From positions 16,802,001 through 16,866,000 of the forward strand of contig NC_135259.1 of NCBI RefSeq assembly GCF_964204865.1: a stretch of 64,000 nucleotides of DNA, read 5' to 3'. The position numbers and the translations under genes are program-made. The notes under the pieces are model-generated. The model did no database searches, was not told the DNA's origin, and saw nothing but the letters and a program-made list of their open reading frames with translations. How positions within the stretch are numbered: position 1 is the stretch's first letter; each line of letters starts with the position of its first letter. Shown piece by piece: positions 75 to 63,580 of this stretch. This stretch comes from Styela clava. Its lineage: Eukaryota.

Positions 75-1423
75 CTTCTACGAGTATAAAATATGAGTTG
101 GAAATTATGAAAACTAAAGTGAGCCAACTTGACTCCAAAATATTGATTGGAGATAAAAAATTGGTGAGATTAAGTAAAAGCAACCAAATATATATTTTTT
201 TATCTATCATTTTTTATTATCAATTTTCACAAATTATATGATAATTATTTTTGTACATTAAACATTAAAAAACGAAATTTTTGTTGTTTATGTTGCATCT
301 AGTTATACAGTGACATGCAAGCACACAATAATTTAGTTTTATTGTAAATTTAGTTTGCTTTACAGAAAGCAAATCTGACTGAAGCGAGTTCGAATATTGA
401 CAAATTATTGTCCATTATCGGGTGGTTCAGAGCAAGCAATAATCTCATTTATAAACGTTTCACTGATTCTGTCAACTATACAACTGCAAAGGCTATATGT
501 GAAGGAATGGGGGCTCGCTTGGTTTCAACTGGAATTAGGAACAACCAAGTGAAAAAGTATGTCTGTTGATTGCAAAAAAATATGTAATTTGTAAAAAAGC
601 TAGATTTGTTTGTTTTGGGGAGTTATGTGTAGTATTAGGGCAAAAAAGTTTTTTCTCAAATACTGAAAAATTTATTTGGAGTTTATAATAGCTCAAATTG
701 TAACTACTTTCAGAAAGCTAGTATTTGACTTTGAAATTTGTTGCGTTGGAAACATCTTCTTGGCGTGTAGTTTCAGTTATTTATCATTATTTATAGGTTA
801 TTTTTTACAGCACAAATGAAATGTATTGTTAAGTGAAAACCAAACATGTACGTGGTACCTTGTACTTTGTTGATAATGACACAAAAACTATTCTTCACTA
901 TCACTTAACAAATGCTTTGAAATATTCAGCGTAAATAGAAAAAGTGTCAACTACAACCTCATTTTTTATTTTTTCACAATCTTTGTGGCACTTTGAGCTC
1001 GCTGTTTTAACACAAATTTTGCTAATTAATTGGTAAATTAATCTTTCATAAGAATAAAACGTACCACTAAATTTGTAACTTTATCTCTTGTACATGTGAA
1101 CTGTAATATAGGAATGAGGCTATAAATGAAGTTTTAACTCTCGGTAATTTATAATCCTGCATCTTCTCAGTGAAATATTTACGAAACATTACTTAACCGG
1201 AGCGTATGCATGGATAGGATTGGACGACATCAGCAATGAAGGAGTTTGGATTTGGTCGGATGGAGTAAATGATTCACCAAGCGCGATATGGGCACCGGGG
1301 GAACCAACAGGAGGTTTTAACGAAGACTGCGCAATCATGCTATTTTGGAATTCCAAACTTGTTGTTTATGATGGTGGCTGTACTGATTCCTATCGATTTG
1401 TTTGCGAAAAAGACTTTGCATGA
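75..1423 (+). CDS. G1: type II TM C-type lectin receptor, 3' part only (5' exons lie outside the window)
   Basis: Exons 75-163 (neck), 366-556 (CTLD-A: ...IIGWFRASNNLIYKRF...AICEGMGARLVS) and 1171-1423 (CTLD-B: AWIGLDD...WIWSDG...EPT...EDC...VYDGGC...FVCE*). GT-AG boundaries and phases are compatible. Confidence 0.85.
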
Positions 1424-2936
1424 TATTCCTAATATTTTATTTTTTTTAGTTCGAGTTTTTAGATAATCTAATAAATCAGTTCAAATAAGAAATAATAATC
1501 AAGAAATGTAAGCGCATTTCACTTTCTCATCGTTAAGTTGTTTCATGAAAATATATTGTTCGATTTTATTTCGAAAATATTGTTTCATATTGTAATCTAC
1601 CTTAATTTATGTTTATTAGCAAAAAAAATATTGTAGTATTTGTTATATTAATTTCATGTTTATTAAATGCTTTCAAGTTTATTATTTTCAATTCGAAGAC
1701 CCCGAAGTTTTATTCTTGCCATTTAACGCACGAAAACGCAGAAGAAAAATTGAAATTACATATTAAAAGTCCAAGAAAGATTTAAATTTGTATATGTATT
1801 TGTCCATCGGATTAATTGAAATTGTGCTCAATTAATTCAGAGACATTATAAAAAATTTATTTCTGAATTAGGTTAGATATTTTAATATATTTTCTCACTT
1901 TATGAATTTCATTGTTTCAAATTCAATCATGAAAATTGCGATTGCGCTACAAACGCGTTGCGCTACAAACTGGTTATTTTGTAATCTCTATTACATATTA
2001 TTATGTTTATTATGTGATAAACGCTATGGTGATATTTATTTGAAATGTAAATGATAACCAAATCGTGTCCATCTACACAATGTTTTTCACAACGTTCCTT
2101 GTATATTTACCTATAAAATTTTTTTATTTATGCAACAAAGTCGATCCAAATTCTGTGTGACATGTTTAAAGTTATGACTATTCTTCTGTAATAAACTTGT
2201 TAATATATTTAAAGTATACTTCCGTATTGGTGTTTTCTGCAAATTGATTTTGACACACTAAATTTTTATGGAATTTTTTAGGCTTAATATGTGGTTGTGA
2301 ATTGTGATGAAAATTATGTAAACTTGTTTCTGTTTTTATTTACGTTTATAATATTATCTACTTTCACATCTTATCAATTCATGTTCTGCTTTTTGTATTA
2401 AAAGAAATGTAAAAACAATTCAAGAAAAAATTTGATCAATAATATTCAAATTTTAATTAGTGTGATGAGTCTTTTGCGAACACTTTATTTTGGATCATCA
2501 AAACGTTGAAAAAATTTGTAGTCATTTCAATATTTGTGAAATCCATTCATATTTAAAATTTTACCTTATTCTGTTATGGCTAGTGCAAATGTGCAGCATG
2601 GGGGAGCAATGGGCATGTGAAATAAATTGAATGCGATTTGCGACGAAATGGCATTGTGTCAAGATGTACCGGGGTTTCAGCAAGTGCGACCTTCCCTGCT
2701 TGAAGATTAATCTGAACTGTTACTTATTCATGAATATTATTTTACAGGACATAAGTCATAATATATATATCATTCATAATACACACAGATAAGCGGCGCA
2801 CAAGCTTAGATGAAAGATAAGTAGTTGGTCCTACAGAAGCCAAATCATCAACGAAAGTACTAATTCATAAATTGTTAAATATTAATGTATGAAAATATGT
2901 AAATAAATCTGTACGATATTTTTACTACTAATTTAG

Positions 2937-8386: not shown

Positions 8387-10739
8387 ATGGAATATTATGT
8401 AAATTGTCAAAGTGAAAATGAATATGAAACCCCTCAAACTGCTTCAGGGCCGCCTGTGATTCCTAAACAAGGTTTGTGTTTTATTTGATTTGCAAAAAAT
8501 TTAATTTGTGAAATTTCAATAGAAAAAATAGATATAGTATGTAAACAAAAATGGGAATACATTATGTGCCCCGCTTTGCATTTCAGGAGAAATGGATGTG
8601 GTAACACTTCATTTCGGGTAAAAATATGAATTTTGTTTACATGAGTCGTTCAAGGTATGAATTTCCAAGCTCGTATTCTTTAGCGGCTGCAGACACGGTA
8701 ACATGGGTCAACTGCTTTGGCTTGCCTGCTAAAACCACATGTTCAACTTGAGCAAGATTTCCAACCAGTGCGACCATCCATTCACGCTCCGTAGCTTGCC
8801 CCGCCTCATCTACAAAATATTCCTATTTTTTGTAGTAATATTTGAGAAAAACCTTAAAAAAATATAATTAATTCATACATAAGTATGACAAGAGTAATAT
8901 TCTATGTGATCTCATATACGACAAGTCTATTATTGACGTTTCACATATATTTTTTTCATAGACAACAATAAAGCTACGAATACGAAAACTTTGTTTGTCC
9001 TGGGGATATTTCTGGGAATCTGCACGTTAGTGTCTGTTGCTGCATTTATTTTGATTATACAAGTTAGTATAGTTATCGTGTATTTTCGATATTTATCCAA
9101 TTTTGAATTTAAATTAACTTTATGTACTACTTTATTAAACCGATTATTTATATGATACGATTTGCTTTAAATTTTTTTCAAGCTTCAGGACGAAATGAAA
9201 CTTATGAGAGAAAAACTGGACACGTTAAAAACGACTCTCAAAAACGTAAGATATATCAATTTATAATCGAATTGTGTCATTTAAATTACCAACAAATTTT
9301 TATCATTTATTTTTTTCTGTTAAAACTTTGAATAAAAGGACAACGGAATTAAATTCCAATCTTGCAAAAATTTGAAATGGAATACAAAAAAGTAAATTAA
9401 AGTAAGCAACGCTTTCAAAAAAAGAAGTAAAAACGACGTCTAAAATCAAAATCTATCTATTCTAGATTGACAAATTTTCACATTTTATTTTACTTTCAGA
9501 ACAAATTGAAATAGTACAGAAGCTAGCAATAAAATTCAATTCTTCCTGTACAAAGATCTTAAACAAAAATTAGGTTGTTATTATCAATATTTCAAATAAT
9601 GAATGAATCCCTTGAGAAAGAATAAAAACAAGAAAGATACTTTTAAATAAAATCTACTATAAATTTCAATTAAAACGCGCCAATTCTGAATATAGAAAAT
9701 TTATTGTTGTATTCAATAAACATTTAACCGAGAATATCAGTCGGAGACCGAAGACTTATCGATCGGAGGTTAGGAGATCCCCCAAAACAGCGCTCTTACT
9801 CCATAGTGACACCGTGTGTCCCATCACTAATTAGTTAATAACTCGCTAATTATACGACATAATTCATCGAAAATTTAATTGTTTTCGTGAGATATCACAT
9901 GTATCTAACAAACAAACAAAGAAACAGACAAATACCTATCAACCTATATCTTAAGATCGATAAGTAATAACCTCATTAGAAATAGAAGTCGAAAAAATAT
10001 TGCTGCTGATATTGCTTTTATGGTTGGAAAATTTAGATCAAAATATTTTAAAATTCTATTCAAGATTTGAATCCTATTTTAAAATCCTAGTTTAACTTTA
10101 TTTCACAGAACACAAACCTGACTGATGCAAATTCTTGGATGAACGAAATGTTTTCCCTATCCGGATGGTTCAGAGCAAGCAATAATCTCATTTATAAACG
10201 TTTCACTGATTCTGTCAACTACGCAACTGCAAAGGCTCAATGTGAAGAAATGGGAGCTCGTTTAGTATCGACTGGAATAAGGGACAACAAAGTGAAAATG
10301 TATGTTAGTGGTGGGTTACATTACGAAATAACGTGAATTTGTAGTCATCGATTGTAGTTCGATGAAGCAGGTGGAAGATTCATATGAACTGTTATTTTTA
10401 AGGGAATTATGTCTTGATAATAATCGTTATTGTAGTTTTACTACAAAAAATCTGAAACTGACCGTAATTATTATTATTCCATTTAGTGAAATATTCCCGA
10501 AACATTACTTAGCCGGAGTTAGTGCATGGATAGGATTGGACGACATCAGAAATGAAGGAATTTGGGTTTGGTCGGATGGCGTAAATGAATCACCAAATTC
10601 TCTTTGGGATGCGCCAGAACCAAACGGCGGTAGAACCGAAAACTGCGTAGAAGTAGTATTCTATAATTCGACATTTGTTGGCAATGATGCTCCTTGCACT
10701 CTTTTCCGTCGTTTTGTTTGCGAAAGGGAGGTCAATTAA
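8387..10739 (+). CDS. G2: type II TM C-type lectin receptor, short neck, about 230 aa, EPN/GND
   Basis: Exons 8387-8471 (MEYYVNCQSENEYETPQ...), 8962-9062 (TM LFVLGIFLGICTLVSVAAFILII), 9183-9245, 10109-10299 and 10487-10739; total 693 nt, open frame. Confidence 0.8.
8637..8822 (-). pseudogene. MOV10/UPF1-like SF1 RNA helicase fragment, antisense in G2 intron 1
   Basis: Minus strand reads YFVDEAGQATEREWMVALVGNLAQVEHVVLAGKPKQLTHVTVSAAAKEYELGNSYLERLM*, matching the DEAGQ, LAGDPxQL and SxLERL motifs. Confidence 0.8.
9732..9967 (-). mobile_element. Non-autonomous Helentron-like (HINE/DINE-1-type) element in a G2 intron
   Basis: 11-bp sub-terminal inverted repeats ACTTATCGATC (9754-9764) and GATCGATAAGT (9955-9965), an adjacent hairpin TCGG-AGA-CCGA and an (ACAA)n microsatellite. 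Absent from the paralogous G12 intron. Confidence 0.6.
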
Positions 10740-15769: not shown

Positions 15770-17916
15770 TTATTCAAATTCCCTTTCGCAAACAAAACGA
15801 TTGACAGCTGAACAGGCTACATCATTACCAACAATCTTTGTATTATAGAATATTATTACGCAGTTTTCGGATGAACCCCCGTTAGGTTCCCCCGATGCCC
15901 ATATTGCACTTGGCGATCCATTAACATCATCCGACCAAACCCAAATTCCTTCGTGGCTGATGTCGTCCAATCCAATCCATGATCCTCTGGTTAAGTAATG
16001 TTTCGGAAATATTTCACTGGATGGAAAACAAAATATTACACATCGAGTTATTGTTTGTAGTGAAATTACCATATCAATTGATTGCGTTTAGAAATACCAG
16101 TTCTTGAGTATCTTCAACTGGCGATATCCAGAGAGGTTAATCTTGGAGTCAAAATTGATGACCAAAAAATTCCAGTAATTGTTTCAAATTATGTTAACGT
16201 CTCACATAATACGCTAACTTACTTTTTTACTTGGTTGTTCCTCATCCCAGTTGATACCAAACGAGCTCCCAATCTTTCACATTGAGCCTTTGCAGTAGCG
16301 TAGTTGACAGAATAAGTGAAACGTTTGTAAATGAGATTATTGCTTGCTCTGAACCATCCGGATATCGAAAACATTTTGTTCATCCTCGAATTTGCTTCAG
16401 TCAGGTTTGCGTTCTGTAAAGCAAACTGAGTTATAAATATAACTAAATTTGTTTTCATGTTACCGATGCAACTATAACTAGATGCAACATAAACAATAAT
16501 AGATTTTTTATGCGTATTGTACAAAAATAATATTCATATTTATATAAAAAATTATAGAAAGCAAATCTATTTGATCCCTGTTTCTTAAACTCACCAATTT
16601 GGTATCTCCAATCAATATTTTGGAGTCGAGTTGGCTCACTTCATTCTTCATATTTTTCAACTCATCTTTTATACTTGAAGATGCTGAAAATTTATCAAAA
16701 ACATAAAATTATGCAACTAATCACATTTTTTAGATCTAACGCAGTAATATTTTTACACAGAATCTTAACATAATATACTTTGATACTGAAGCGTTAGAGA
16801 AATCAGGTGACCAACTTACCTTATCAATTAAATTTTGTTTTTATATTTTATGTTTCGTTTTTACTCCGATAAACTAAGTTAAACTTGATAAAACAAAGAT
16901 TCGATGAAAAGTTGAAATAAAATATAAAATATGAACTTACTTTATTGTGGTTTCTAGGGAACTTTTATAAAGAAAGTATTGAAATGTGTTGCCGGTTTTT
17001 CAAATGATTCGACTCAGTTATAAGTTTAATAATATAAACTTAACATTTTGTGTTTCATTCGAAATCTTCGCAAGGGACGAATTGAACTGAGTTGTCAATT
17101 TTTCCAAAGTTTTCACTTGTTTTTAAATTTGAAAAAACTAAATCATGCTTATATATAATTGGCATTTTTTGACTAAAATCAATATATCATACTTTTTTGA
17201 GTGTCGTTTATTTTGATGGCGAGAGATGAATCAATCTCACTAAATTTGTCCAATTTTTCTTTCATTCCATTCATCTCGTTCTGGAGCTTATAATAAATTT
17301 TAACATTTCAGATGAACGAATTATTACAAAAATAGGAAAAAATATATTTTTGTACAATGCGCATATTTTTCTTTGATTTTATTATATAGAACACTAGAGT
17401 AAGTTTAATTTTCACTAAGTTTACTAATTAACTTCATTAAGTTTACTAATTAACCTGCATAAACAGGATAAATGCAGCAACCGACACTAGGACGCAGATT
17501 CCTAATGATATCGCTAGAACAATCAGAGTTTTCTTGTTTGTAGCTTTATTGTTGTCTGTGGAAAAAAAACGTCTATAAAAGGAATTTCAAAACAGAGATT
17601 TCCTAAGATAAAAAAAATATTTTCTGTTCTATTCTATGTCAAAATAAGGCAAACACAAATTGTTGCGACATTGATGTAAAATAGCTGATTTCATATGGAT
17701 AAAATAGGTTATTTTCATTTTTAAAAGCCTGAGAGGTTTCACCATGCCTGTTTACTCTTGTATTATATTTTTTAATTTTTCTTGTTATAGTACAAATTAG
17801 AATTTGAGTTTAATCAAACACAAACCTTGTTTAGGATCTGCAGGTGGCCTTGAAACAGTCGAGGAGATTTCATATACATTTTCACTTTGACCATTTACAT
17901 AACATCCCATCTCCAT
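15770..17916 (-). CDS. G3: type II TM C-type lectin receptor, about 270 aa, EPN/GND
   Basis: Exons 17916-17826 (MEMGCYVNGQSENVYEISS...), 17555-17455 (TM), 17286-17193, 16683-16595, 16413-16223 and 16016-15770; total 813 nt, open frame. Confidence 0.82.
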
Positions 17917-21213: not shown

Positions 21214-23570
21214 ATGGATATGGAATGTTATGCAAATTTTCATAGTCAAAATATATATGAAACCCCTCAAACTGTTTCAGGGCCACCTGCGTTTCTTAAA
21301 CATGGTTTGTGTTTGATTAAACTTAAATATGAATTTGTAATATAACAAGGAAAAATAAAAAAATAGGATACAAGGGTAAACATGCATGGTAAACCTTCTT
21401 CGGCTTTCAAACATGCAAATATCATTACTTTTCTCCATATGAAATCAGCTATTTTACAGGAATGTTGTAACAAATTTTAATTGCCCTATTTTTACGTAGA
21501 ATAAAAAAATGAGTAATTCCTCATGAAATCACTTTTTCAAATGCCTTTCATCCACGTTTTTATTTTCCACAGACAACAAGGAGGCTACGAACAAGAAAAC
21601 TCTGTTTGTTTTCGCGATATCTTTTGGAATATGCTTCATTGTGTCTGTTGCTGCATTTATTCTGATCATCCAAGTTAGTTAGTAGTGGGAATTAAATTAA
21701 GCCTAATGTTCCATATATTAAAATCAAATAAAAAAATTCGTATCGTACGAAAAGTTGTTAATTCTGTTCAATTTCGTTTTTTGAAATATTCAAATTTATT
21801 TTAAGCTCCATAACAAGATGAATCGTATGAGAGATAAATTGGACAAAATGAGTGAGATCGATTCATCCCTCGCCAGCAATATAAACGACACTCAAAAAAG
21901 TACGATATATTGATTTTAGTCAAAACATGCCAATTGTATATTAGCCTGATCTATTTTATCGAAAATAAAAACAAATGAAAACTTTTGCAATATTGACAAA
22001 GCAAAGATTTCAAATAAAACACAAAAGAGTAGGTTTATATATGTTATTAATGACAAGGCATCGCATTTCAAAAGCTTGGAAACGACATTCAAAAACGAAA
22101 ATTATTTTGAATTTCAATGAAAATTTGCCAATGGCATGCCAATTAAGTTTAACATTTGTTTTACAACTTATAAATAGTCCAGACATTTGAACAATTGGCA
22201 ACGCTTTTTAATTTCTTCATAACAAAATTTCCAAGAAAACACAGAAAAGTAAGTTCATATTTCAGATATTTGAATTTTTGATCAAGTTTTTGCTTCAGAA
22301 GGCTTAACATGGTTTATCGAAGTAAAAACAAAACATGAAATTAAAAAATATATATTAATGAAAAAGTAAGCTTGTCACCTGCCTTCTCTGATGCTTCAGA
22401 ATCAGAATAAATTATATTGGAATCATTCGTAAAAACTTACTGCGTGCGATCTAAACCTGTGATTAGTCAACATTTTTTATGTTTTCAAATAAATTAATAA
22501 ATTTTCAGTTACTTCAAGTATAAAACATGAGTTGAAAAATATGAAGAATGGATTGAGCCAACTTGACTCCAAAATATTGATTGGAGATAACAATTTGGTG
22601 AGTTTGAGCAACAAGGAACTATTTCCTTTGTCTATCTATAATTTTCTTTAGTATGAATTATAAAAGTATATGAATATTATTTTTGCACAATAAACGTAAA
22701 AAACGAACATATTGTTGTTTATGTTGCATCTAGTTATACAGAAACATGTAAAAACACAATGTTTCAGGGTTATTTTAAACTTAGTTTGCTTTACAGAAAG
22801 CAAACGTGACTGAAGCAAATTTGAGGATGAACAAAATGTTTTCGATATCCGGATGGTTCAGAGCAAGCAATAATCTCATTTACAAGCGTTTCACTGATTT
22901 TGTCAACTACGCTACTGCAAAGGCTCAATGTGAAGAAATGGGAGCTCGTTTGGTTTCAACTGGAATTAGGAACAACCAAGTGAAAAAGTAAGTTAGTGAC
23001 TTGTGTTAGAAACGTTAACACTCTTCTTTTACTTTCAGTACTTTCAGTTAGATCCAGCAGTATCTATAGGTTTCTACAGTACAAATGAAATGTATTTTTA
23101 AATGTTGTTGTTATTGACGTAAAAGCCACTATTTACCTCACTCACTACTAGTTAATATATCTTGTCAGTATGGAAATTAATTACCAAAAACTCATTTCAA
23201 ATTTGTTCACAATATTTTTTGGCACTTTGTAACATGTTTTCATTTCTTGCACATGTGAGCTGTAATATGTAAATATGGCTATAAATGAAGCTTTAACTTT
23301 CAGTAAATAATAATTCTGCATCTTCTTAGTGAAATATTCCCGAAACATTACCTAACTGGAGCGTATGCATGGATAGGATTGGACGACATAAGCAAGGAAG
23401 GAATTTGGGTTTGGTCGGATGGAGGAAATGAATCAACAAGCGCAATATGGGAATCGTCACAACCAAACGGGGGCAGAAGCGAAAACTGTGCAGTAATCAT
23501 ATTGCCTGGTGCTCTTGATATTGCGTGCTCTGTAGTCCAAAGATTTGTTTGCGAAAGGGAATTTGCATGA
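21214..23570 (+). CDS. G4: type II TM C-type lectin receptor, about 268 aa, QPN/ALD
   Basis: Exons 21214-21304 (MDMECYANFHSQNIYETPQ...), 21573-21673, 21806-21899, 22509-22597, 22797-22987 and 23330-23570; total 807 nt, open frame. Confidence 0.82.
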
Positions 23571-41388: not shown

Positions 41389-41428
41389 TGTAACGTTTCG
41401 TCTGACCAAGGTCAGACTTCTTCAGACA
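41389..41428 (-). ncRNA. Minimal type I hammerhead ribozyme (minus-strand copy)
   Basis: Exact reverse complement of 41506-41545. Confidence 0.72.
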
Positions 41429-41505
41429 TACATAATTCAACCATCAGACATACCATCATACCATCAGACAACCAACCAGACATACATAATTCCTTGAATT
41501 ATGTA

Positions 41506-41545
41506 TGTCTGAAGAAGTCTGACCTTGGTCAGACGAAACGTTACA
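41506..41545 (+). ncRNA. Minimal type I hammerhead ribozyme
   Basis: UGU-CUGAAGA-A-[GUCUGACC uu GGUCAGAC]-GAAAC-GUU-ACA: conserved core boxes, perfect stem II, palindromic loop-less stem III and 3-bp stem I. Confidence 0.72.
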
Positions 41546-44114
41546 GAAATATATTTGTGTTAGTGTGCAGCAAGACTCTTGAATCACTTAGGATTTTTAT
41601 TCAATACGCATATTTTTTATTTGATTTTATTATATAGTACATTAGGCTCAATTTAATTCGCAGTACTAACTTACATAATCAGGATAAATGCAGCAACAAA
41701 CAATAAACAGGAAATTCCAAAAGAAATCGCGACAACGAACAAGTTTTTCTTGTTTGTAGCTTTATTGGTCATCTGTAAAAAGAAAAAGTCAATGAAAAGC
41801 ATTTCGAAAGCGATTCCATGCTGTAAAAGAATTACTCATTTTTTTTATTCCTTGAAAAAAAGAACGATTAAAATTTGATATGGCATTGCTGTAAAATGGA
41901 TGATTTCATGTGGAAAATGTGATATTTGAATTTTTAGCTGCTGGAGAAGTTTCACCATGCCTGTTTACCATTGTATCCTATTTTTCATTTTCTCTCGTTA
42001 TATTACAAATTAGAATTTAGGTTAATCAAATAAACTACAAACCTTGTTTAGGAACCGCAGGTGACCCTGAAGCAGTCTGGAGTGTTTCGCACGCATTTTC
42101 ACCTTGACCATTCACATAACATTCCATCTTCAAATCAACGCTATATGGTGTGATCTGCTTTCAACTAAACAAAGTCGTGATTCCCATTACCATTTTATAG
42201 AGGATTACAACATCTCATTAGAATTAGATAGCTGTACACGCAAACATTGACGTAACTCAAAAAATATATTTGGTAATATTATCAGTGGGAGTCCGAAACC
42301 ATAATAATGACATTAAACAATATATACTCTTAGTTATATGGTCGTACATATGTCAAGCTAACTGAAGACTTAAATTGTTTTAAATTATAGCTTAAGGTGC
42401 AATGATGATTCTGTAGTTCCATATTATCATTGCGTCAAAGGTGGGAGACGAAACAACTATTTTGCGATAAGCCATAAGAACTAGTTACCGAATATGTTAC
42501 ACATTCTTACTAGAGCTAGGAAATGTTTTCAAACGGCCACTGCTTGCCTTAAGAATATCATGAAATAAATAAGAATAGATCAAATGTTTATATCATATTC
42601 CACATTATAATATATTTACATTTAGACGTGTGCGGATTGACTAAGTGAGGTACTTGATATGAAACCCTTAATTTGCTTCAATATACGTCCATCATATTTC
42701 AATAATATTGTTAGGTCACAGCAGGGAAATAAATATTTTGAATTTCATTCTCCTGCTAGTAAAATCATTAATTCATTCTGAGCTTTACTGAGTTATTCAA
42801 GCTTACTAACATTATTAAAAGCATCTTCTGCTAGATTGATTTTCAGTCCTACACGACCTCAACTGTCAGTTCGAAACGATAATTGGTTGTCAATGCTTGG
42901 TAAATCAATTTCCGATATTTTCCGGCTAAGCGGCGAAGAATTTCATTTTTTTCATTTGTTATCATTATGTCTTTTTTGTCAATGAAATAAAATTCATCAA
43001 AGCCGAAATGCAATGTACATAAAATGCTCTTATCATATGTTATCTTACACAACCTAATTAATGATTATGTCATAAAGACCATATTGTGATAATAATATAC
43101 TTACAATATAAGTATGATTTTGCCACAAGCACAATTTTTTGGGCTCAAAAATTCGATAGATTGTATTTGTTATAGTTTATTAACAACATGTATTACAGAC
43201 TACAGGCAGTTTACAGGCTCACTGATATATTTTATATATCTGGAGTGTCGGAGTAATAAACAACTCTCTCTCACGGAGTCATAAAATGGAAAGCATCAAT
43301 CAAAATTTGTTCAACCTCGGGACACGTCCGGTAGTTTTTAACATTTTCAACTTGCCGACGGGATTGTATTGGTCTAAATAGCAATAGATATTAAGGTTAT
43401 TTCAATAGGATCGATTATCCTAATCAACCGAGAAATACAAAATGTAACACATGATACCACGCACGGAGAATGAAATAATAAATATTCAATAATTGCATGC
43501 TGTAACCCAAACCTGACCGGTGTTTTTGAACTGTAATTGACGTGTATTGAAGCAATTGAGATTTGCATAACAAGCACGTCACATTGCCAACCCATATGCA
43601 GTTCTAAATAATATATGTAATATATGTCTAAATGTATAAAATAATCATAAAAATAGAATGGAAAAAATGTATGCTAAATCGATATTCATTCATATTTGTA
43701 ATCACAATATACATAGGACATTGGCTAGTTTAAAATACGTATTCATTCAAATATCAAAGAAGTAATGCGTCACATATACTGCCACTGGTTCTGTTTTTTC
43801 CTGGCCCACATTTGATGTTGTGTTATTTATCTAAAATTTACATAATTGAGAATACACCTCAAGGTATGATTCAAAACAAATAATGTAATTTGACGTATGT
43901 ACTGTTACATAACCGAGGGTATGTTGTTTTGTGTCATCAGGGTTTTGCCACCCTCTGATAATAATAGCATCGGAATTACGTTGATATGTATTTCATTTGA
44001 CGTGAAATGTTAGCTGATTAATTAAGGTTAGCTGCTAATTCTCTATAAAACGGCTATCGGCACCAAGACTTCGCATTTTAAAAGCAGAACATTTTAGAAC
44101 ACGTTACTATAAAG

Positions 44115-46516
44115 ATGGAATGCTATGAAAATTTTCATAGACAAAAAATAGATGAAGCCCCCCAGTCTGCTTCTGGGCCACCTGCGATACCTAAACAAGG
44201 TTTGTGTTTTATTTGACTCACCCAAGATTTATTTTTCAAATTACATAGTAAAACTAGATAGAATATGTAAACACATAAAATATAACTATTTTTGAGCAAT
44301 GCTGTAAAAAAATTGAATTGATTCATTCGGGTCAAGTATGACACGAGTATTATTCTATATTGTGTTTTCTCTTACGAAATTCCACGTTTGAAATCTTACA
44401 TATATTCGTTTTTTTATAGAGAACAATGAAGGCACAAAAAAGAAAACTTTGATTGTTTCTGCAATATCTTTGGGAATCTCCTTCTTAGTGTCTGTTGCTG
44501 CATTTATCCTGATTATGCAAGTTAGTATAGACATCGTGTATTTTCGATGTTTATTTGTCACTGAAATTAAATTAAGCTCACTACAGCGCGATAAATTAAT
44601 AAAAACTTATAGTATTGAAGAAGCTATTTGTTCTCCACTTTTGAATCTCCATTTATTTGCATTTCTAAATTTATTTTAAGCTTCAAAACGAGATAAAATA
44701 TACGAAGGAAAGATTAGAGAAAATGAGTGAGACTGATTCATCTCTGGCCAACAATATCAACGACACTCAAAAACGTAAGATTTTCAAAAAATTTTCAAAG
44801 CGCCAAGTAAATCATCGATGTTGGAGTTTTATTTAAAAACTTAGGAACGAGTCGAAGCTCTTGAAAAGCTGGAAATGGATGTCAAGTCGTCCCTTGTGAA
44901 GATTTCAAATGAAAGACAACAAAATGAGTCGATATAAATATTATAAATATTATGATTTATTATAATATGAATATAATTAAAATTTAATTAAATATGAATT
45001 TTTAAAATTGCGCATCATTTATTCGCCTCAAGTGCTTGAACACAGTAAAGCGAAAAATATAATCAAATGAGCAAATGAATTAAGCATGGTAATTTGTTTC
45101 AAGAATTTCGCAAACGCTCGCAGCAACAGACGCAAAAGAATACAATATGGTATGTTGAAAAATTTCGTAGAATATCCTATTTCATGAAGTCAGATCGAGA
45201 AATTCTATGCTTTTGCTATTTTTTAGATATTTGAATTAAAATTTCAGGTTCTTTGAAAACAAAAAGTGAGTTGGAAACTTCAATTAAAACAGAAGTGAGT
45301 GAGCTGAACTCCAAAATACACAACGGAGATAATAAATTGGTGAGTTTGTGACTCATAACATGACGTGTTTTATTAGGAAAATAAAATGACTTATAATCAC
45401 GTGGCAACATTAATTCAACTCAATTTATATGTGCTACGTTTTATGAATATCTACTTTTATTACTGAGGAGTTATAAAATTTATTGTTGTACTCAAGAACG
45501 GCTTAAATAACCACATTCCAAATAGAACTTAATTAAACAAAATGCTTGCTTATAATTTTTTTACATTTTATAGTTGGAAAATTTAGTTCATAATATCCCA
45601 GTATTATTTATGCGTAATTTCATTTTATAGAATAAAAGCCTATCTGATACAAATTCGAGAATTACTGAAATGTTTTCGATATCCGGATGGTTCAGAGCGA
45701 GCAATAATCTCATTTACAAACGCTTCACTGATTCTGTCAACTACGCGACTGCAAAGGCTCACTGTGAAGGAATGGGAGCTCGTTTGGTATCGACCGGAAT
45801 TAGGAACAGCCAAAATAAAAGGTCGGTAGGTGGTTTGTGTGAGAAACTTGAGCATATTTCGTTGGGATTTTCCAAAACCTTGCTTTTTATGAAAAATAGT
45901 GTGGATTTAAGTTATCTGTGAATACATTATAAAATGTTACACCACCAATGACATATATGTTTTTAAAAAAGGAAAGCACGCAGATTTACTGGACCTACAA
46001 TGCTTTTTCCAGTAAGGAAAATATATATTTTATACTCCTTTCTAGTGTTCCAAATCAAAGTTTGCTAATTTGAATGTACATTAGTTTTCCGAAGATATAT
46101 TTTGACAAGCTGAAGAGACACGTGCATTGAAATAAGTTGAAATTAATATTCCACATGCATACATTGTGCATTTGCATTTGTACGGTGCTCCTTTCTTCCA
46201 GTAAACTGGTATTTTCAATGGGCATCGAATTATAATAAAAAAACGTCTGTAAATATTAATTTGTTTTCCATTCAGTGAAATATTTCCGAATCAGTATTTA
46301 ACTGGGGCGTATGCATGGATAGGATTGGACGACATCAGCAGTGAAGGAACTTGGGTTTGGTCAGATGGAGCAAATGGTTCACCAAGTGCAATATGGGAAT
46401 CGTTAGAACCAAACGGCGGCAGAAAAGAAAACTGCGCAGTAATCAGATTATCTGGTGTTATTGATGTTGCGTGCTCTGAAATCCATCGACTTGTTTGCGA
46501 AAAGGAATTTGCATGA
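44115..46516 (+). CDS. G9: type II TM C-type lectin receptor, about 267 aa, EPN/VID, single cytoplasmic Tyr
   Basis: Exons 44115-44199 (MECYENFHRQKIDEAPQ...), 44420-44520, 44681-44774, 45248-45339, 45631-45821 and 46276-46516; total 804 nt, open frame. Confidence 0.8.
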
Positions 46517-48946: not shown

Positions 48947-50470
48947 TCATTCAAGTTCCCTTTTGCAAACGAATCGGTGGACATTTAAACAACGGGCATC
49001 ATTAGCAACAATTATTGAATTATTGGTTACTCCTGCGCAGTTTTCAGTTCTACCGCCGTTTGGTTGCCCCGGTGCCCATATTACACTTGGCGTTTCATTT
49101 ACGCCATCCGACCAAACCCAAATTCCTTCATTGCTGATGTCTTCCAATCCAATCCATGAAGAAGCTCCGGTTAGGTAATGTTTCGGAAATATTTCACTGA
49201 AAAGAAAATAATATATTACGAATTAATAGAGTTTTTTGTGTTGAAATTACCATACCGTTTATTTTTTATAAGTAAGTTTTTCTTTTAGACCAACTATAAA
49301 TACCAGTTGATAGGAATATTTAATTTCAGAGAGAGAGGTTGATCATCGAGCCAAAATCGATGACCAAATAATTTGCGTAGTTGTTTCGTATTATCTTAAC
49401 GTCTCACATAATCCGATAACTTACTTTTTCACTTTGCTGCACCTCATCCCAGTCGATATCAAACGAGCTCCCATTCCTTCACATTGAGCATTTGCAGTTG
49501 CATAGTTAACAGAATCAGGGAAACGTTTGTAAAAGAGATTATTGCTTGCTCTGAACATTCGGATATCGAAAACATTTTGGGTAATTCTCGAATTTATATC
49601 AGATAGGCTTTTATTCTTAAAAATGAAATTACACATGAATAATACTTGGAGTTTATGACCTAAATTTTTCAACTATAGAATAAAAGCAATTATAAACAAC
49701 AAATTGTTCTAAGTTCTCTTTAGAATGTGGTTATTCGAATGTTTTTTTGAGTACAAAAATAAAAACCAGTGATCTTGAGTAATAAACGTAGATATTAATA
49801 AAACGTAACACATTTAAAACGAGTACAATTCATGTCGCCCCGTGATAATAAATCATTTTATTTTTATAACAAAACATGCCATATTATGAGTCAATAATAA
49901 ACTCACCAATTTGGTATCCTTGTTGTGTATTTTGGAGTTCAGTTCACTCACTTCTTTTATGATTAAAGTTTTTAATTTTCTTTTTGTTTTCAAAGAAGCT
50001 GAAATTTTAATTCAAAAAGTTGTGCAACCAATAGCAAAAACATAGATATCTGATCTGATCTCATGCAAAAAGATTTTGTGCAAAGATTTTTTAGCATAAC
50101 ATACTATATTATTTTGCGTCTGTTGCTACGAGCGCCTGTGAAATTATTGAAATAATATACCCGTTGAATTCATTTGTTCATTTAATTATATTTTCTGCTT
50201 CACTTTTGGAAAATGTGTTCAATCGGTTGAACGTGATAAATGATGCAAAGTTGAAAATATGTATAACACCAACTCACTTTGTTGTGTTCCACTTGAAATC
50301 TTTGTGAGGGACGTCTCGACATCCGTTTTCACCTTTTCAAATGTTTCGACTCGTTCTTAAGTTTTTGAATAGAAGTTTAACTCTACAATTGATACGTTTC
50401 AAATTAAATTTAAAAGATCTTACGTTTTTAAGTATCGTTGATAATGTTGACAAGAGATGAATCAGTCTCA
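48947..50470 (-). pseudogene. G10: 5'-truncated lectin gene (no tail or TM exons), QPN/AND
   Basis: CTLD-B 49196-48947, CTLD-A 49615-49425 and neck exon 49998-49907 are open. Exon 3 is cut at about 50470 and joined to 3'-flank-type DNA. Confidence 0.75.
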
Positions 50471-51334
50471 ATCAGTATTGCTCTATATTTACGCAACTCT
50501 GTATGTGAGCGTTCATGCACCACAAGATATGTGTTTTATTTGACTATAGTATACCCGGGTATACGGGTAGTATAGCGGGTATACCAGCTAGATCTGGTAT
50601 ATTGGACTAATCCAATAATATTGATTATATTTACAAATGATTTATATATTATATTGCTTTTCTAGGCTACACTTTTGCTATATTATAGATGAACAATGTA
50701 TCTGAGATATATATACAATCGTTAATTTTGATAAAAAAAAACGCAGTTATTAGCGTTCTTGAGCAGAACATAATCAATCGTTATAACTAAGTAATTTTAG
50801 AGCTATAATTAGTATGTATTTGTGTTTTTTTCTTCAAATTTTTTCTGAAGGCTTCTTTACTTCAGAGACTATTGCGTAAAATTTTAGTATGTGTAAAGTT
50901 AGCTCAAGTCAAATATGATTAGAATAAAAAAAATGAAATTATGTTCGAAACTAAAATATTTGCGGGGGTAAATAGTACACATTTGCGAATGTATGTGAAA
51001 ATTAAAATGTCCTAGATTGCAAATACCCATGGGTGCAAATGCCTATTAGATAAAATTAATGCTAGAATCTACGACTGGATTCAAAAGTGTGCAGGTTGAA
51101 TATTCTTGATGCCTGTCTTATTTTGGATTTATTTAATAACCCGACAACAATATGATATAGTAAACAATAAAACATTTCATTTTTCTTCGTAAACTGAGGA
51201 CAACGAAAAGTCTGTTAAAAAGCACGGTGGGGTTTGTATTAGCCACCTTCAAAAAATGCTTGTCGAATAGTTCAAGTAATTCATTAGTAAACACTCATTA
51301 TTCAACTATTTCCTATTATTGTTCATTCTATTCA

Positions 51335-53565: not shown

Positions 53566-55462
53566 TTATTCAAATTCCCTTTTGCAAAGAAAAGGATTGA
53601 AATTTGAACAAGGTGCATCATATCACCAACAATCTTCAAGTTATAGAATAATACTACGCATTTTTCGAATCTGTGCAATTTGGATCCATATTGCATCTGT
53701 CGATCCATGAACACCGATCAAACCCAAATTCCTTTGTGGCTTATGTTGTCCAAACCAATCCATGAAAAAGCTTCGGTCAAGTAAGGTTTCGGAAATATTT
53801 CGCTGGGTGAAAAAGAAAATATTACACATCGTGTTATTTTTTGCAGTGAAATTACCATATCAATTATTATTTATGGGTTAGTTTCCTATTGCGTTTAGAA
53901 ATACTAGTTTATAAGAACCGTCAACTGGCGATATCCAGAGAGGTTGATCATGGAGTCAAAATCGATTATCAAAAAATTCCCGTAATTGTTTCATATTATG
54001 TTAACTTCTCACATAATTCGTTTACTTTTTTACCTTGTTGTTACTCATTCTAGTTGATACCAAACGAGCTCCCGATCCTCCACATTGAGCTTTTGCAGTA
54101 GCGTGATTGACATGACAAAATCAGTGAAACGTTTGTAAATGAGATTATTGCTCGCTCTGAACCATCCGGCTATCGAAAACATTTTGTTCATACTCCAATT
54201 TTCGCGTGTTTTCATGTTGGCTCACTTTATTCCTCATACTTGAAGAAGCTGAAAGTTTATTCAAAAACATTAAACTAGGCAACTAATCACATTTTCGTAT
54301 CTAGAGACTTTTAATATAACTAACTTTGATTCTAAGTCGTCAAAGAAGTCAGGTGACCAGCCTACTTTATCAATTATATCGTTTTTAGATTTTATGTATG
54401 GTTTTTATTTTGATAAACTATGTCTAACCTGATAAAGCAAAGCTGATAAAACAAATACTCGATGCAAAGTTCAAATATCTAAAATATGCACATACTCTTT
54501 TATGTTTTCTTGCAAATTTTTGGGAGGAAGGAATTGAATTGCGTAGCTATTTTTTTTTTAATTTCTCGACTATCTATAAGTTTTAAATCAAATGTTAAAC
54601 TTCATTGACCTACCATGGAAATTTTAAATAACATACGTTTTTGAGTGTCGTTTCCCAGCTTTTGAAGTGCGATGCTTAGTTATTAACATATTATTAATAT
54701 AAATTACACGTTTGTGTTTCATTCGAAATCTTTGCGAAGGACAAATTGAACTGTGTTGTCTATTTTTCAAAAGTTCCCACTTGTTCTCAAATTAAGAAAA
54801 AAATAATTTATGCTGATACAATTCTGAATTCAATATATCTTACGTTTTTGAGTGTTGTTATATTGTATCAATATTTCACATAAACGGATTAGAACAAATT
54901 TAGAAAACAAAAAACTTTTTGTACAATATGCATAATTTCATTTAATTTTGCTATATAGAACATTAGACTTAGTTTAATTTCCTGTACTAACTAACTTGCA
55001 TAATCAGGATAAATGCAGCAATGGACAATAAGAAGCAGATTCCGAAAGATATCACCACAACAAACAATGTTTTCTTGTTCGTAGCTTTATTGATGTTTGT
55101 TAAAAGAAAACGTGGATAAAAGGCATTTCAAAAAAGAAATTTCATGATGTAAAAAAAATGATTCATATTTATTGTTCGTAAAAATAGGGGAATTAAATTT
55201 TGTTACGGCATTGGTGTAAAATAGATAATTTCATATGGAATATATGATATTCGCATTTTTGAAAGCCGGAGACGTTTCACCATGCCTGTTTACCCTTGTA
55301 TCCCATTTTTTAATTTCTATTGTTTTAGTATAAATTAGATTTTAAATTATTTAATCAAATAAAACACAAACCTTGTTTAGGAACCGCAGGTGGACCTGAA
55401 GCATTCTGAGGGATTTCATATGCATTTTCACTTTGACCATTTACATTACATTCCATCTCCAT
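53566..55462 (-). pseudogene. G11: lectin pseudogene
   Basis: Exon 1 55462-55372 (MEMECNVNGQSENAYEIPQ...). TM-exon acceptor lost; deletions in neck exons; frameshifting insertion in CTLD-A; stop (WV*) and deletions in CTLD-B 53802-53566. Confidence 0.82.
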
Positions 55463-56731: not shown

Positions 56732-58708
56732 ATGGAGATGGAATATTATGTAAATTGTCAAAGTGAAAATGAATATGAAACCCCTCAAACTGCTTCAGGG
56801 CCACCTGTGGTTTCTAAACAAGGTTTGTGTTTTATTTGATTTCCAAAAAATTTAATTTGTTAATTTACATTAGAAAAACTAGATATAGTATGTAAACACA
56901 AATGGGAACAGAGCATGTGCCCTGCTTCGCATATAAATCAATGAGATAACACTTTTATTCGGGTAAAAGCATCTGTTCTATTTAAGCACTATTTCCAGAC
57001 AGTGCGACCGTGCATTCAGGCTCCGTAGCTTGTCCCGACACATCCACTCGAATATTCATATTTTTTGTTCTTGTAATATTTGAGCAAAACTCTGAAAAAG
57101 TAGAATTTTGTCATACACGCCAATTATGACACGAGTAATATTCCATATAATCAATATACAAAATGTCTATTATTGACATTTTATATATTTATTTTTTCAT
57201 AGACAGCAATAAAGCTAAGAATAAGAAAACTTTGTTCGTTCTCGCGATATCTCTAGGAATCTGCTTATTAGGGTCTGTTGCTGCATTCATCCTGATAATA
57301 CAAGTTAGTATAATTATCGTGTATTTTTGATATTTATTCGATTATGGAATCAAATTATCTTCATGTACTACTTTATAAAACCAATTATTTATATGATACT
57401 ATTTGCTGATTGTTTTCCACTTTTGTCTTTCTCTATTTATCTGCAATGTTTAAATTTATTTTAAGCTTCAAAACGAGATGAATCTTATGAGGGAAAAACT
57501 GGACACATTAAAAGCGACACTCAAAAACGTAAGATAGACGTTTTTAATCAAATCATGTCATTTAATTACCGAAAGAAAAATTTTATTTTTTTTGTTAAAA
57601 TAATTGAATTAAAGGTTAGGAACTAAATTCCTATCTCGCGAAAATTAATGAAACACACACAAAAAAAGGTTTAAGTAAGCACTTTCAATAAATTGTATAA
57701 ACGACATCTAAAATCAAAATCTATCAATTCTAAATTACCACTTTCATATTTTATTTTAGTTTCAGAACAAATCAAAATAGTAGAAAAGCTAGCAACAAAA
57801 TTCAACTCATCCTGTACAAAGATTTTGAACAAAAATTAACTTTTTATTGTTAATGGCTCAAACTAAGATAATTCAAACAATGAGCCAATCCTGAATAAAG
57901 AAAATTTGGCATTGTAATCAATAAACGTTTTCCTAACAACATTAGAAATAAGAGTTGAAAAAATATTGCTGTCTATATTGCTTTTATCTTTTAAAAGTTT
58001 TTAAAAGTCAATCTTACATTTATTTTACAGAACACAGTTCTGAATAATACAAGTTCTAGGATGAACAAAATGTTTTCGATATCCGGATGGTTCAGAGCAA
58101 GTAATAACCTTATTTACAAACGTTTCACTGATTTTGTCAACTACGAAACTGCAAAGGATCAATGTGACGGAATGGGAGCTCGTTTGGTATCGACTGGAAT
58201 AAGGAACAACACACTTAAAAAGTATGTTAGTGGTGGCTTATATTACGAAACAACGTGAACTTTTAGTCATCGATTTTAGCTCGATGAATAAGTTGAGGAT
58301 TCATAGGCACTGTTTTTTCTAAACGGATCGTGATTTGAAAAAAACTAATCCATACATAATAATCGTTATGGTAATTTTACTTTAAAAATATCTCAAACTG
58401 TATAGTAATTTTCTTGCAGAAACCCTGAACTATTCATAATTATTTATATTGCTTTTAGTGAAATATTTCCGAAACATTACTTAACTGGAGTTAGTGCATG
58501 GATAGGATTGGACGACATCATCACTGAAGGAATTTGGGTTTGGTCGGATGGCGTAAATGAATCACCAAACTCTCTTTGGAATGCGGCAGAACCAAACGGC
58601 GGTAGAACTGAAAACTGCGTAGAAGTATTCAATAATTCGACTATTGTTGGCAATGATGCTCCGTGTACTCTTTTTCGTCGTTTTGTTTGCGAAAGGGAAT
58701 TTGATTAG
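56732..58708 (+). CDS. G12: type II TM C-type lectin receptor, short neck, about 231 aa, EPN/GND
   Basis: Exons 56732-56822 (MEMEYYVNCQSENEYETPQ...), 57203-57303, 57466-57528, 58031-58221 and 58459-58708; total 696 nt, open frame. Closest paralog of G2. Confidence 0.8.
56990..57055 (-). pseudogene. Internally deleted MOV10-like fragment in G12 intron 1
   Basis: Reverse complement GTGGATGTGTCGGGACAAGCTACGGAGCCTGAATGCACGGTCGCACTG = VDVSGQATEPECTVAL. Confidence 0.7.
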
Positions 58709-61393: not shown

Positions 61394-63580
61394 TCATGCA
61401 AATTCCATCTCGCAAACAAATCGGTTGTTGTAGGAACATAACAGATCAGCAACGCCAATTTTTGAATTGAAAAATAGTATGGCTGCACAGTTTTTGCTTC
61501 TACCACCGTTGGGTTCTCCCGTTCCCCACATTGTGCTTGTCGAATCATTTGTTCCATCCGACCAAACCCAAATTTCTTCATTGCTGATATCGTCTAATCT
61601 TATCCATGCATAAGCTCCGGTTAGGAAATGTCCCGGAAATATTTCACTAAAAAGATGCAATATCATTAATTACTTACAATTAGAGCTTCATAGCTTCATA
61701 GTTTCGTTTGGTAAGTTTTATCATCGTGAAAGTTTAATTGCGGCTTGTCTCAAAATAGGCGTTCCATCATCTTGCAAAAACTAATCAGCGCTACCATCGC
61801 TACAAAAAAAGATTGTGAACAAATTTAAAATGATTTAGTGAGTACTTTTTAGTAGTTACATTTTGAGCTATTAATAATTTTTGAACTAATTCTTTAGTAT
61901 TCAAAGAAAACTATTTTTGTTTTGACACTACAATTATGGGTCTACAAAACAAACATTAAAAATAAATATTCTTCACGGAACTAACTAACTTACTTTTTGA
62001 CTTGGATGTTCCTAATTCTAGTCGATACTGAACGAGCTCCCATTCCTTCACATCGAGCCTTTGCAGTTGCTCAGTTGGCAGAATCAGTGAAACGTTTGTA
62101 AAAGAGATTATTGCTGGCTCCGAACCATCCGATAATGGAAAATAATTTGTCAATTTTCGAGTTTGCCTCAGTCAGGTTTTCTGTCTGTAAAGCAAACTAA
62201 GTTTGAAATTAACCTTAAATATTATGTGTTTTCATGTTACTGTATAACTAGATGCAACATGAACAACATTTTTTTTCACGATCATATATATACCTTTAGA
62301 ATTCGTGGTAAATTATAGATATGTAAATATATTTGATCCCTGTTGCTTAAACTCACCAATTTGTTGTTTTCGATGAATATTTTGGAGTCGAGTTGACTCA
62401 CTTCATTCTTCAATATTTTCAACTCATGTTTTATACTCGACGATGCTAAAAATTTATTTGAAAGCGTAAAATTTGGTGACTAATCATATTCTAGAAACCA
62501 ATCAGTAAGTTTTTTTACAGCGACTTTGAATATAAATTTCTTTGAGTCTAAAGCGCCAATCGTCAGAGGGGTCAAGTGACTAACTTTTCTCATCATTTAT
62601 ATGTGTTTTTAAATTTTAAGTTTTGTTTTTGCTTTGGTGAATCTCAAAAGAAATTCAAACTAACTCGCGTTTTTGAATTTTGTTTCTAAGATTTTTAAAT
62701 GCAATGCATAGGTATTAGCATATTAGTATTATAAACTTGCTTTTCTGTGAATCATTTGAAATCTTCGCGAGGGACGAACTGAACAGTATTGACAATTTTT
62801 CAAAAATTTCAACTTGTTCTAAAATTTAAAAATAGTATTTATGTTCATGTACAACTGGCACGATCCGACTGTGATCAATGTATCTTACGTTTTTGAGTGT
62901 CGTTTATAATGATGGACAGAGATGAATCAATCTCACCCATTTTTTCCACTTTTTCCCTCATATGATTCATCTCGTTCTGGAGCCCAAAATAAATTTGAAT
63001 ATTGAAGAAAAATTACAATGGTAGTTTTTGTATATAAATTTAATTATATCATTTAGTTCATTAAACTTCAATTAATTCACAGTTACAGAAAGATAAAACA
63101 CGGAATATCTGAACTAACTTGCATAATCAGAATAAATGCAGCAACAGACACTAAAAAGCAGATTCCCGAAGATACCGCGAAAGCGAACCAAGTTTTCTTG
63201 ATATCATGCTCATTGTACTCTATAAACTAGAATTATGTGGATAACGTATGTAATGAAAATTTCAAAAAAATAATTGGAAGGAATCAGAAAACATTGAATC
63301 CCGTCTCATTTGTTTTAAGTAATTTCACCTCGTTTTTCCATGACATTACTAAAATTTGTTGTTCACTATTGAAAGAAAGATGATAGTAAACTTTCCTCAT
63401 AAAAAAGTGTTCGTATTTGCGTTTCCTCGTTTTATCGTTTACTTGGTATTTCAATATTACAAATTACACTGGAAGTTATCAAATAAAACACTAACCTTGT
63501 TCAGAAATTGGATGTGGTCTCGAAGCAGCCTGAGCGGTTTCATATGCATTTTGCCTGTGATCATTTTCATAATATTCCAT
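61394..63580 (-). pseudogene. G13: complete lectin gene structure with a nonsense codon in CTLD-A
   Basis: Exons 63580-63496 (MEYYENDHRQNAYETAQ...), 63219-63119, 62982-62889, about 62817-62741 (GC donor), 62445-62357, 62184-61994 and 61646-61394. TGA replaces TAC at 62073-62071. Confidence 0.75.

What the first reader, a model, noticed from the sequence alone, without database searches (positions are those of the whole stretch)
1171..61646. CTLD split into a near-invariant exon and a hypervariable ligand-binding exon
Seen: exon A is 191 nt in all undisrupted copies with almost fixed GWFRASNNLIYKRFTD.VNY.TAKA.CE.MGARLVSTG. Exon B varies at the Ca2+/sugar site-2 positions and in loop length: G1/G5 EPT-ED-VYD; G2/G3/G12 EPN-EN-GND; G4/G7 QPN-EN-ALD; G9 EPN-EN-VID; G10 QPN-EN-AND; G13 EPN-KN-VAD. 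None has canonical WND. Known: EPN versus QPD plus WND determine mannose- versus galactose-type binding. Inference: diversifying selection on ligand specificity, and some copies may bind protein or be Ca-independent.
Basis: partly seen in the sequence, partly recalled or inferred. Interest (0 to 1): 0.7.

Follow-up and report, generated by a model that had tools for sequence, protein, structure and literature searches.

The report
Sea squirt DC-SIGN-like lectin receptor array
A sea squirt carries a tandem array of about 35 copies of a membrane lectin gene in which most calcium-binding residues are kept while the predicted rim of the sugar pocket varies, likely giving each copy a different glycan preference; this is a familiar immune-receptor pattern and the selection signal is modest.

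Summary
The sequence observations hold: exon A is 191 nt in 10 of 11 window copies and every listed exon B motif is present. The genes are Styela clava type II membrane C-type lectins, part of an array of 35 exon-A/B loci, 22 with both exons in frame. The reading needs three corrections. (1) Variation follows structure, not exons: the first 18 codons of exon A are as variable (50% identity) as the end of exon B (48%), and the start of exon B is conserved (79%). (2) Three of five Ca2+ site-2 ligand positions are nearly fixed; lack of Trp in WND is family-wide and known in Ca-dependent lectins. The most variable residues align to DC-SIGN's secondary pocket (p=0.007). (3) Positive selection is modest: both exons have dN/dS of 0.4-0.5; a class of about 10% of exon B codons at omega 2.2-2.6 survives a recombination-aware test (p 0.008-0.05) but not every control. 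Silent divergence also rises in the variable part, and copies are mosaics. The scan noted loop swapping in another lectin family of this genome. Ordinary in kind, well suited to testing.

The parts
77..1423 (+).
   Evidence: equals database protein P0001
2937..3110 (+). orphan, stop-ridden copy of exon B downstream of W1
8387..10739 (+). W2 (G2): cytoplasmic, membrane and one neck exon, exon A 10109-10299, exon B 10487-10739; EPN-EN-GND
15770..17910 (-). W3 (G3): full gene; exon A 16223-16413, exon B 15770-16016; EPN-EN-GND
21214..23570 (+). W4 (G4): full gene; exon A 22797-22987, exon B 23330-23570; QPN-EN-ALD; a spare first exon lies at 19509-19592
   Evidence: A-B joint 22987>23330 (GT..AG) in contigs of runs X9 and X10
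25063..25136 (+). orphan fragment of exon B
27348..29912 (+). W5 (G5): full gene; exon A 28964-29154 of W4 type, exon B 29660-29912 of W1 type (mosaic); EPT-ED-VYD
31013..32072 (-). gene remnant with degraded upstream exons and no lectin-domain exons
   Evidence: tblastn hits; no exon A or B hit
34844..37686 (+). W6 (G7): full gene; exon A 36756-36946, exon B 37446-37686; QPN-EN-ALD
   Evidence: joints 34932>35262 and 35364>35502 in run X9
41093..42127 (-). gene remnant (cytoplasmic, membrane, neck exons) without lectin-domain exons
   Evidence: no exon A or B hit
44115..46516 (+). W7 (G9): full gene; exon A 45631-45821, exon B 46276-46516; EPN-EN-VID
   Evidence: 195-nt contig of run X3 spans the A-B joint with 0 differences
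48947..50517 (-). W8 (G10): likely pseudogene; exon A 49425-49615 with compensated frameshift, exon B 48947-49196; QPN-EN-AND; no cytoplasmic or membrane exon found
53718..55462 (-). W9: pseudogene, frameshift in exon A and early stop in exon B
56732..58708 (+). W10 (G12): gene with short neck; exon A 58031-58221, exon B 58459-58708; EPN-EN-GND; domain used for the structure model
   Evidence: joints 56820>57201, 57303>57466, 57528>58031 in one contig of run X9
61394..63583 (-). W11 (G13): pseudogene; TGA in exon A (61994-62184) at 62071-62073; exon B 61394-61646; EPN-KN-VAD

Best explanation
This is a tandem array of sea-squirt type II membrane C-type lectin genes that duplicates, decays and exchanges segments between copies, and whose products likely bind sugars through a retained Ca2+ site while varied residues around the predicted secondary pocket likely tune which glycan each copy prefers. 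Shown: gene structure (tyrosine-bearing tail, membrane helix, variable-length neck, two-exon lectin domain), splicing of several copies, pseudogenes, discordant trees along the gene, conserved Ca ligand positions, and concentration of variation at positions aligning to DC-SIGN Phe313, Asn344, Glu358, Ser360, Asn365, Asp367, Leu371, Lys373. Inferred: gene conversion or unequal crossover keeps the scaffold alike and moves pocket variants onto new backgrounds; weak positive selection acts on about a tenth of exon B codons; the receptors oligomerise through the neck and act in microbial recognition or uptake. Untested: any binding, cell type and signalling.
For: Architecture and Lectin_C match. 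Model of the W10 domain, pLDDT 93.8, has the long-form CTLD fold; Foldseek's best rows are DC-SIGN and SIGN-R1 (E 5.8e-10), tied with many CTLDs by Z 18.3-19.4. Ca ligand counts. Ungapped alignment of W7 to DC-SIGNR from EPN to the last Cys fixes the numbering. The eight pocket residues listed in PMC6899773 have mean entropy 2.43 against 1.65 for variable columns of the same half (p about 1e-4); the six within Cys3-end give exact p 0.007 against variable columns there. Exon A and exon B trees reject each other (AU p<0.001 both ways); W5 switches from W4-like to W1-like near the exon junction (MaxChi p 0.0005, silent sites 0.005). Silent divergence is 0.18 in the core and 0.27 in the variable part (p 0.012); tree dS 1.7-2.0 versus 3.6-6.3. 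Partitioned codon test on exon B: LRT 6.1-9.7, 0 of 27 null replicates reach 6.1; exon A LRT 0. Spliced joints in contigs of three runs.
Against: No binding data. The selection signal is small and fragile: p 0.44 and 0.054 on Cys3-end alone, p 0.22 for M1a/M2a on the two last partitions, p 0.18 on the 8 window copies, p 0.69 when both exons share one omega distribution; pN/pS in 7 independent close pairs is 0.70 at most. Only 2 of 11 triplets keep a recombination signal on silent sites, and I chose the triplets after seeing nearest neighbours. The pocket match was noticed before the paper's list was fetched, and variable columns are only a proxy for surface exposure. 15 of 22 copies lack the Asn ligand and one (L7) also lacks the Asp. 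Closely related TC14 lectins act as growth factors, so an immune role is not given.
Confidence: 0.62

Rival explanations
1. No adaptive diversification: exposed loop residues drift near neutrality, purifying selection holds the fold, and gene conversion homogenises only the stretches that are still alike, which deepens the contrast and inflates omega tests.
For: Whole-exon omega 0.41 and 0.49; silent divergence rises with amino-acid divergence; single-tree LRTs reached by 4 of 36 and 8 of 36 mosaic null replicates; the neck end, not a ligand site, is equally variable with omega 0.77; 13 of 35 loci have a broken or missing exon A or B.
Against: Partitioned test exceeds 27 of 27 null replicates and strengthens when doubtful copies are dropped; variation is enriched at pocket-equivalent positions over other variable columns of the same segment; Ca ligand positions stay conserved, so the site is under selection.
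Confidence: 0.25
2. One reading: an exon-level module in which exon B is under strong diversifying selection at the Ca2+ ligands, making some copies Ca-independent or protein-binding, like NK-type receptors.
For: Signal of omega above 1 only in exon B; 15 of 22 copies lack the Asn of WND; tunicate CD94-like type II lectins exist and CiCD94-1 is described as lacking carbohydrate binding (PMC5465252); W5's break lies near the exon junction.
Against: Variation does not respect the exon border; most break points fall inside exons; none of the five Ca ligand positions is among the sites with posterior above 0.5 in the partitioned test; the same two-exon split and Trp-less xND occur in an unlinked cluster and other S. 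clava proteins; Trp-less and Asn-less motifs are Ca-dependent in bivalve lectins.
Confidence: 0.1

Closest known systems
DC-SIGN / DC-SIGNR / mouse SIGN-R (group II type II membrane C-type lectins)
   Same: Tail, membrane helix, repeat-built neck of variable length, one long-form CTLD with EPN and Glu at +7; 12-residue Cys3-Cys4 forms align without gaps to DC-SIGNR; top Foldseek rows.
   Different: About 27% identity; no Trp in WND; lacks the N-terminal disulfide seen in many group II domains (recalled); domain on two exons; array of 35 loci; orthology not shown.
TC14 lectins of Polyandrocarpa misakiensis (PDB 1byf)
   Same: Ascidian CTLD, best single-domain sequence match in the PDB (E 1.6e-12); no Trp in the WND position (LDD), EPS motif, yet Ca2+-dependent galactose binding (PMC3293724); TC14-3 shares WAPGEP with W1.
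   Different: TC14s are small secreted dimers with cytostatic activity; these are membrane-anchored with a neck and keep Glu at +7.
BsCD94-1 and CiCD94-1 (tunicate CD94-like receptors)
   Same: Type II membrane proteins with one CTLD in tunicate blood cells (review passage, PMC5465252).
   Different: CiCD94-1 is described as lacking carbohydrate binding; this array keeps most Ca ligands. No direct sequence comparison was made.
Mammalian NK complex arrays (Ly49, NKG2, NKR-P1)
   Same: Tandem type II CTLD genes with segment-limited homogenisation (abstract of PMC3210942).
   Different: There the ligand-binding domains are homogenised between paired receptors; here the scaffold is more alike and the pocket segment stays distinct. 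NK receptors lack the Ca site (recalled).

Membership tests
C-type lectin-like domain superfamily | Lectin_C profile match above the curated cut-off | tested here: met
   6 of 6 proteins, 49-57 bits against cut-off 22.6
C-type lectin-like domain superfamily | CTLD fold with four conserved cysteines and WIGL strand | tested here: met
   Model pLDDT 93.8; Z 18.3-19.4 to solved CTLDs; four Cys invariant in 16 of 16
Ca2+-dependent carbohydrate-recognition domain | Five site-2 ligand residues (E/Q, N/D, E, N, D) | tested here: inconclusive
   All five present in 7 of 22 copies (one with Asp for the second Glu, one with Gln); the Asn of WND is replaced in 15 of 22; Asp kept in 21 of 22
Ca2+-dependent carbohydrate-recognition domain | Measured Ca2+-dependent sugar binding | not testable with these tools
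   needs recombinant protein
Group II-like type II membrane lectin receptors | N-terminal tail, one membrane helix, neck, C-terminal CTLD | tested here: met
   Exon maps and translations; splicing of tail-membrane-neck-domain exons
Group II-like type II membrane lectin receptors | Neck-driven oligomerisation and endocytosis | not tested
   neck is a long helix in a low-confidence model; no complex prediction run
CD209 (DC-SIGN) orthologues | Common descent shown by phylogeny or synteny | not tested
   structural scores are tied across many CTLD families
NK-type (group V) CTLD receptors | Loss of the Ca2+ site-2 ligands (recalled definition) | tested here: not met
   E/Q-P, second Glu and Asp kept in at least 21 of 22 copies

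The most novel reading that the evidence does not exclude
The array is an independently built tunicate glycan-receptor repertoire in which conversion between copies is still active within the species, so individuals carry different mosaics of scaffold and pocket segments, and selection tunes the same secondary pocket that DC-SIGN uses; with paired tyrosines in the tail it could serve as a polymorphic self/non-self sensor on blood cells, a sugar-reading counterpart of the NK complex.
Probability: 0.15. Interest if true: 0.7.

Novelty: new member of a known kind. Interest (0 to 1): 0.38.

Why it matters
It offers about 20 naturally varied copies of one lectin scaffold with the Ca2+ site mostly held fixed, a ready series for testing how rim residues, not the EPN/QPD rule, set glycan specificity, and a concrete candidate locus for variable pattern recognition in the closest invertebrate relatives of vertebrates. 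The evolutionary pattern itself (tandem birth and death, conversion, loop variation) is familiar.

Tried and rejected
Alternative terminal exons: 11 of 11 orphan exon-B copies examined carry stops or frameshifts or lack a splice acceptor, so no sign of exon choice. First structure job (13 close sequences) failed in the lectin loops, pLDDT 58.6; not used. Single-tree site tests were set aside as proof because mosaic nulls reach them. No listed run is on record as RNA; the runs laid are contigs guessed to be RNA, so only spliced joints were used, and cover gives no ranking; no joint was listed for W8, W9 or W11, which shows nothing. A joint can come from a close paralogue at the 90-94% likeness used. 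Searches for close relatives returned only S. clava proteins above 45% identity among those whose names were seen; most of the 150 rows are unnamed multi-domain proteins and were not traced. Ten paper searches listed nothing that by title or abstract start describes this array; subscription journals are not covered. The one supplement file held for PMC7540406 names only collectin among lectins; tables held as other files could bear on this. PMC141046 was not held. Look-ups of earlier findings by place and by sequence were empty. Whether the 41-kb block duplicate is real or a second haplotype could not be decided.
Full report
Identity and extent. The window lies at G000:C13:16802001-16866000. 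Exon B of the first gene is 100% identical to a protein named as Styela clava. I fetched 240 kb of flanks and found 35 loci with exon A, exon B or both between about C13 16.62 and 16.87 Mb, plus 11 orphan exon-B and 2 orphan exon-A pieces. 22 of 35 have both exons in frame (21; W7 added after correcting its donor). The window holds 11 pairs, W1-W11, of which 9 are in frame. Upstream exons encode a tail with two tyrosines, a membrane helix and one to several neck exons: type II membrane C-type lectins (Pfam Lectin_C in 6 of 6 tested). Contigs of runs guessed to be RNA bridge the A-B intron of W4-type and W7 genes and the upstream introns of W6- and W10-type genes at GT..AG ends.

Observation. 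Exon A is 191 nt, phase 0 to phase 2, in 10 of 11 window copies and 20 of 22 in-frame copies. Two entries rest on broken copies: W11 has a TGA in exon A, and W8 has a compensated frameshift and no tail or membrane exon nearby.

The contrast is structural, not exonic. Over 16 non-redundant copies (22 minus five near-duplicates and W8), amino-acid identity is 50% in exon A codons 1-18 (neck end), 87% in the rest of exon A, 79% in the first 31 columns of exon B, 60% in the long loop and 48% from Cys3 to the end. The same two-exon split appears in a cluster on contig C14, whose exon-B hits read LND or VND where visible; four other S. clava proteins have VND, AND, LND, VND. So the split and the missing Trp are family traits.

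Ca2+ site. Of 22 copies: E or Q 22, Pro 22, N 17 (T 3, D 1, K 1), second Glu 21, Asn of WND 7, Asp 21. The best single-domain PDB sequence match is the ascidian lectin TC14, with EPS and LDD; PMC3293724 (abstract, outline and passages seen) gives its Ca ligands as Glu106, Asn109, Asp127, Asp128 and calls it Ca2+-dependent and galactose-binding. A bivalve review (PMC12842671, passages and part of Table 4) lists QPN, FLD, MLD, WVD, WID and others, many marked Ca-dependent, and also cases where motif and Ca dependence disagree. The motifs therefore neither show Ca independence nor predict the sugar.

Where the variation sits. A model of the W10 domain from a 47-row alignment has pLDDT 93.8 and matches DC-SIGN, SIGN-R1, mincle and other long-form CTLDs about equally. 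W7 aligns without gaps to DC-SIGNR from EPN to the last cysteine, which with Glu347/Asn349/Glu354/Asn365 from PMC13325526 (passages) fixes the numbering. PMC6899773 (passages) names eight residues enclosing a pocket beside the Ca site: Asn344, Glu358, Ser360, Asn365, Asp367, Phe313, Leu371, Lys373; PMC13325526 ties Phe313, Ser360, Asp367 and Leu371 to secondary glycan contacts. Seven of the eight equivalents are among the 11 most variable of 126 columns; mean entropy 2.43 against 1.65 for variable columns of the same half (p about 1e-4) and 1.12 for the five Ca ligands. Restricted to the Cys3-end segment, exact p is 0.007, and 0.017 without the Asn column. I noticed the match from recall before fetching the list, used the list unedited, and had no solvent-exposure control.

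Selection. I wrote a codon-model program (GY94, F3x4, naive empirical Bayes, branch lengths partly optimised); it is not PAML. It used 20 of 22 copies (L14, identical to W3, and W8 dropped). One-ratio omega is 0.405 for exon A and 0.485 for exon B. On one tree per exon, exon B gives M1a/M2a LRT 12.4 (p 0.002) and M8a/M8 10.0 (p 0.0008); exon A gives 0. But tree dS climbs from 1.97 (A core) and 1.67 (start of B) to 3.60 and 6.25, and with narrower segments the tests fall to p 0.045/0.010 and 0.44/0.054. Simulated nulls with no omega above 1 but segment-specific trees reach the single-tree LRT in 4 of 36 (exon B) and 8 of 36 (second half) replicates. A partitioned test with one tree and rate per segment is better calibrated: observed 6.1, reached by 0 of 27 nulls, maximum 5.9. 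With two starts it gives 7.4 (p 0.024), 8.6 without R1, 9.7 (p 0.008) on 15 copies without block duplicates, 3.5 (p 0.18) on 8 window copies, 0 for exon A, and 0.75 when both exons share one distribution. Recurrent sites are columns 76, 115, 122, 124, 137, 138; none is a Ca ligand. With optimised branch lengths the partitioned fit gave omega about 1.5-1.6 on about a quarter of sites (p 0.22 to 0.0015 by test). Seven independent close pairs give pN/pS of 0.39-0.70 by segment, never above 1. Verdict: modest, site-limited evidence.

Recombination. Trees of exon A and exon B reject each other (AU p<0.001) and the A-core tree has short, weakly supported inner branches. Across 18 copies the A core is 89% identical in DNA while flanking intron ends average 57-62%, near the shuffled baseline of 53%. 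Nearest neighbours change along genes. Nine of 11 hand-picked triplets give MaxChi p<0.05 on all sites, 2 of 11 on silent sites; W5 is the clearest, W4-like then W1-like. Silent divergence at conserved codons is 0.18 in the core and 0.27 in the variable part (p 0.012). Database protein P0003, absent from this genome's copies, equals W5 in the A core and in all 31 columns from Cys3 on but is nearer W4/L13 than W5 at the start of exon B; if it is an allele from another animal, which is inferred, exchange is ongoing. PMC3210942 (abstract and outline) describes segment-limited homogenisation in mammalian NK lectin families.

Mechanism. Most likely the copies are Ca2+-dependent glycan receptors whose neck clusters the domains (inferred), whose rim residues shift specificity (inferred from DC-SIGN), and whose tails couple to uptake or signalling (inferred). 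Duplication and loss renew the set; conversion among similar stretches keeps the scaffold alike. A purely neutral account of the loops remains open at about one in four.

Comparison and novelty. It works like DC-SIGN/SIGN-R-type receptors but is not shown to be orthologous; it fails the NK-type test of lost Ca ligands. Tunicate CD94-like type II lectins are known (PMC5465252, passages). The S. clava genome paper (PMC7540406, passages and one supplement file) reports collectin, MBL and ficolin expansions and 1.72% heterozygosity, and no passage seen describes this array. PMC3269628 (passages) only lists TC14 as galactose-binding. Ten searches listed no description of the array. It is a new member of a known kind; interest 0.38.

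Noticed in passing
window 1-23240 and G000:C13 about 16689000-16730000 (L009-L013): A block of about 41 kb is repeated 95-96.5 kb upstream at 95-98% identity, so W1-W4 have near twins. Real segmental duplication or a second haplotype placed in tandem; undecided.
   Followed up: partly
first exons, e.g. window 27348-27431, 34844-34933, 56732-56821: Tails carry two tyrosines in a Y-x-N...x-Y-E-[T/I] pattern; some copies have lost one or both (W7, L6, R1). YxN and YE resemble SH2-binding and YxxF/V endocytosis motifs (recalled); not a canonical ITAM or ITIM.
   Followed up: partly
neck exons across the array, e.g. window 57466-58031; L006; L017: Neck length varies by exon gain and loss: W2 and W10 lack two neck exons, L22 has three copies of the last neck exon, L7, L6 and R1 triple another. 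Parallels DC-SIGNR neck-repeat variation.
   Followed up: partly
window about 6000-7700, + strand: Decayed reverse-transcriptase-like sequence of a non-LTR retroelement between W1 and W2, seen by eye; not searched.
   Followed up: no
window about 35040-35150 and 36490-36735: Short repeats inside W6 introns that draw very deep cover from many contigs in all four runs laid, probably a high-copy SINE or MITE.
   Followed up: no
window 48947-55462, - strand: Database model P0166 joins the first exon of pseudogene W9 and an unrelated stretch to W8's lectin exons and has no membrane helix; likely an annotation chimera. Several other models of the array also omit the tail and membrane exons.
   Followed up: partly
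L016 (G000:C13:16753205-16753426, -): One copy (L8) has a QPD motif with LHD, the only galactose-type motif in the array.
   Followed up: no
L030-L031 (G000:C13 about 10.84-10.85 Mb): Two related lectin domains here lie in one uninterrupted frame, one behind a short collagen-like stretch, with EPN and LDD: collectin-like, intronless in the domain.
   Followed up: no
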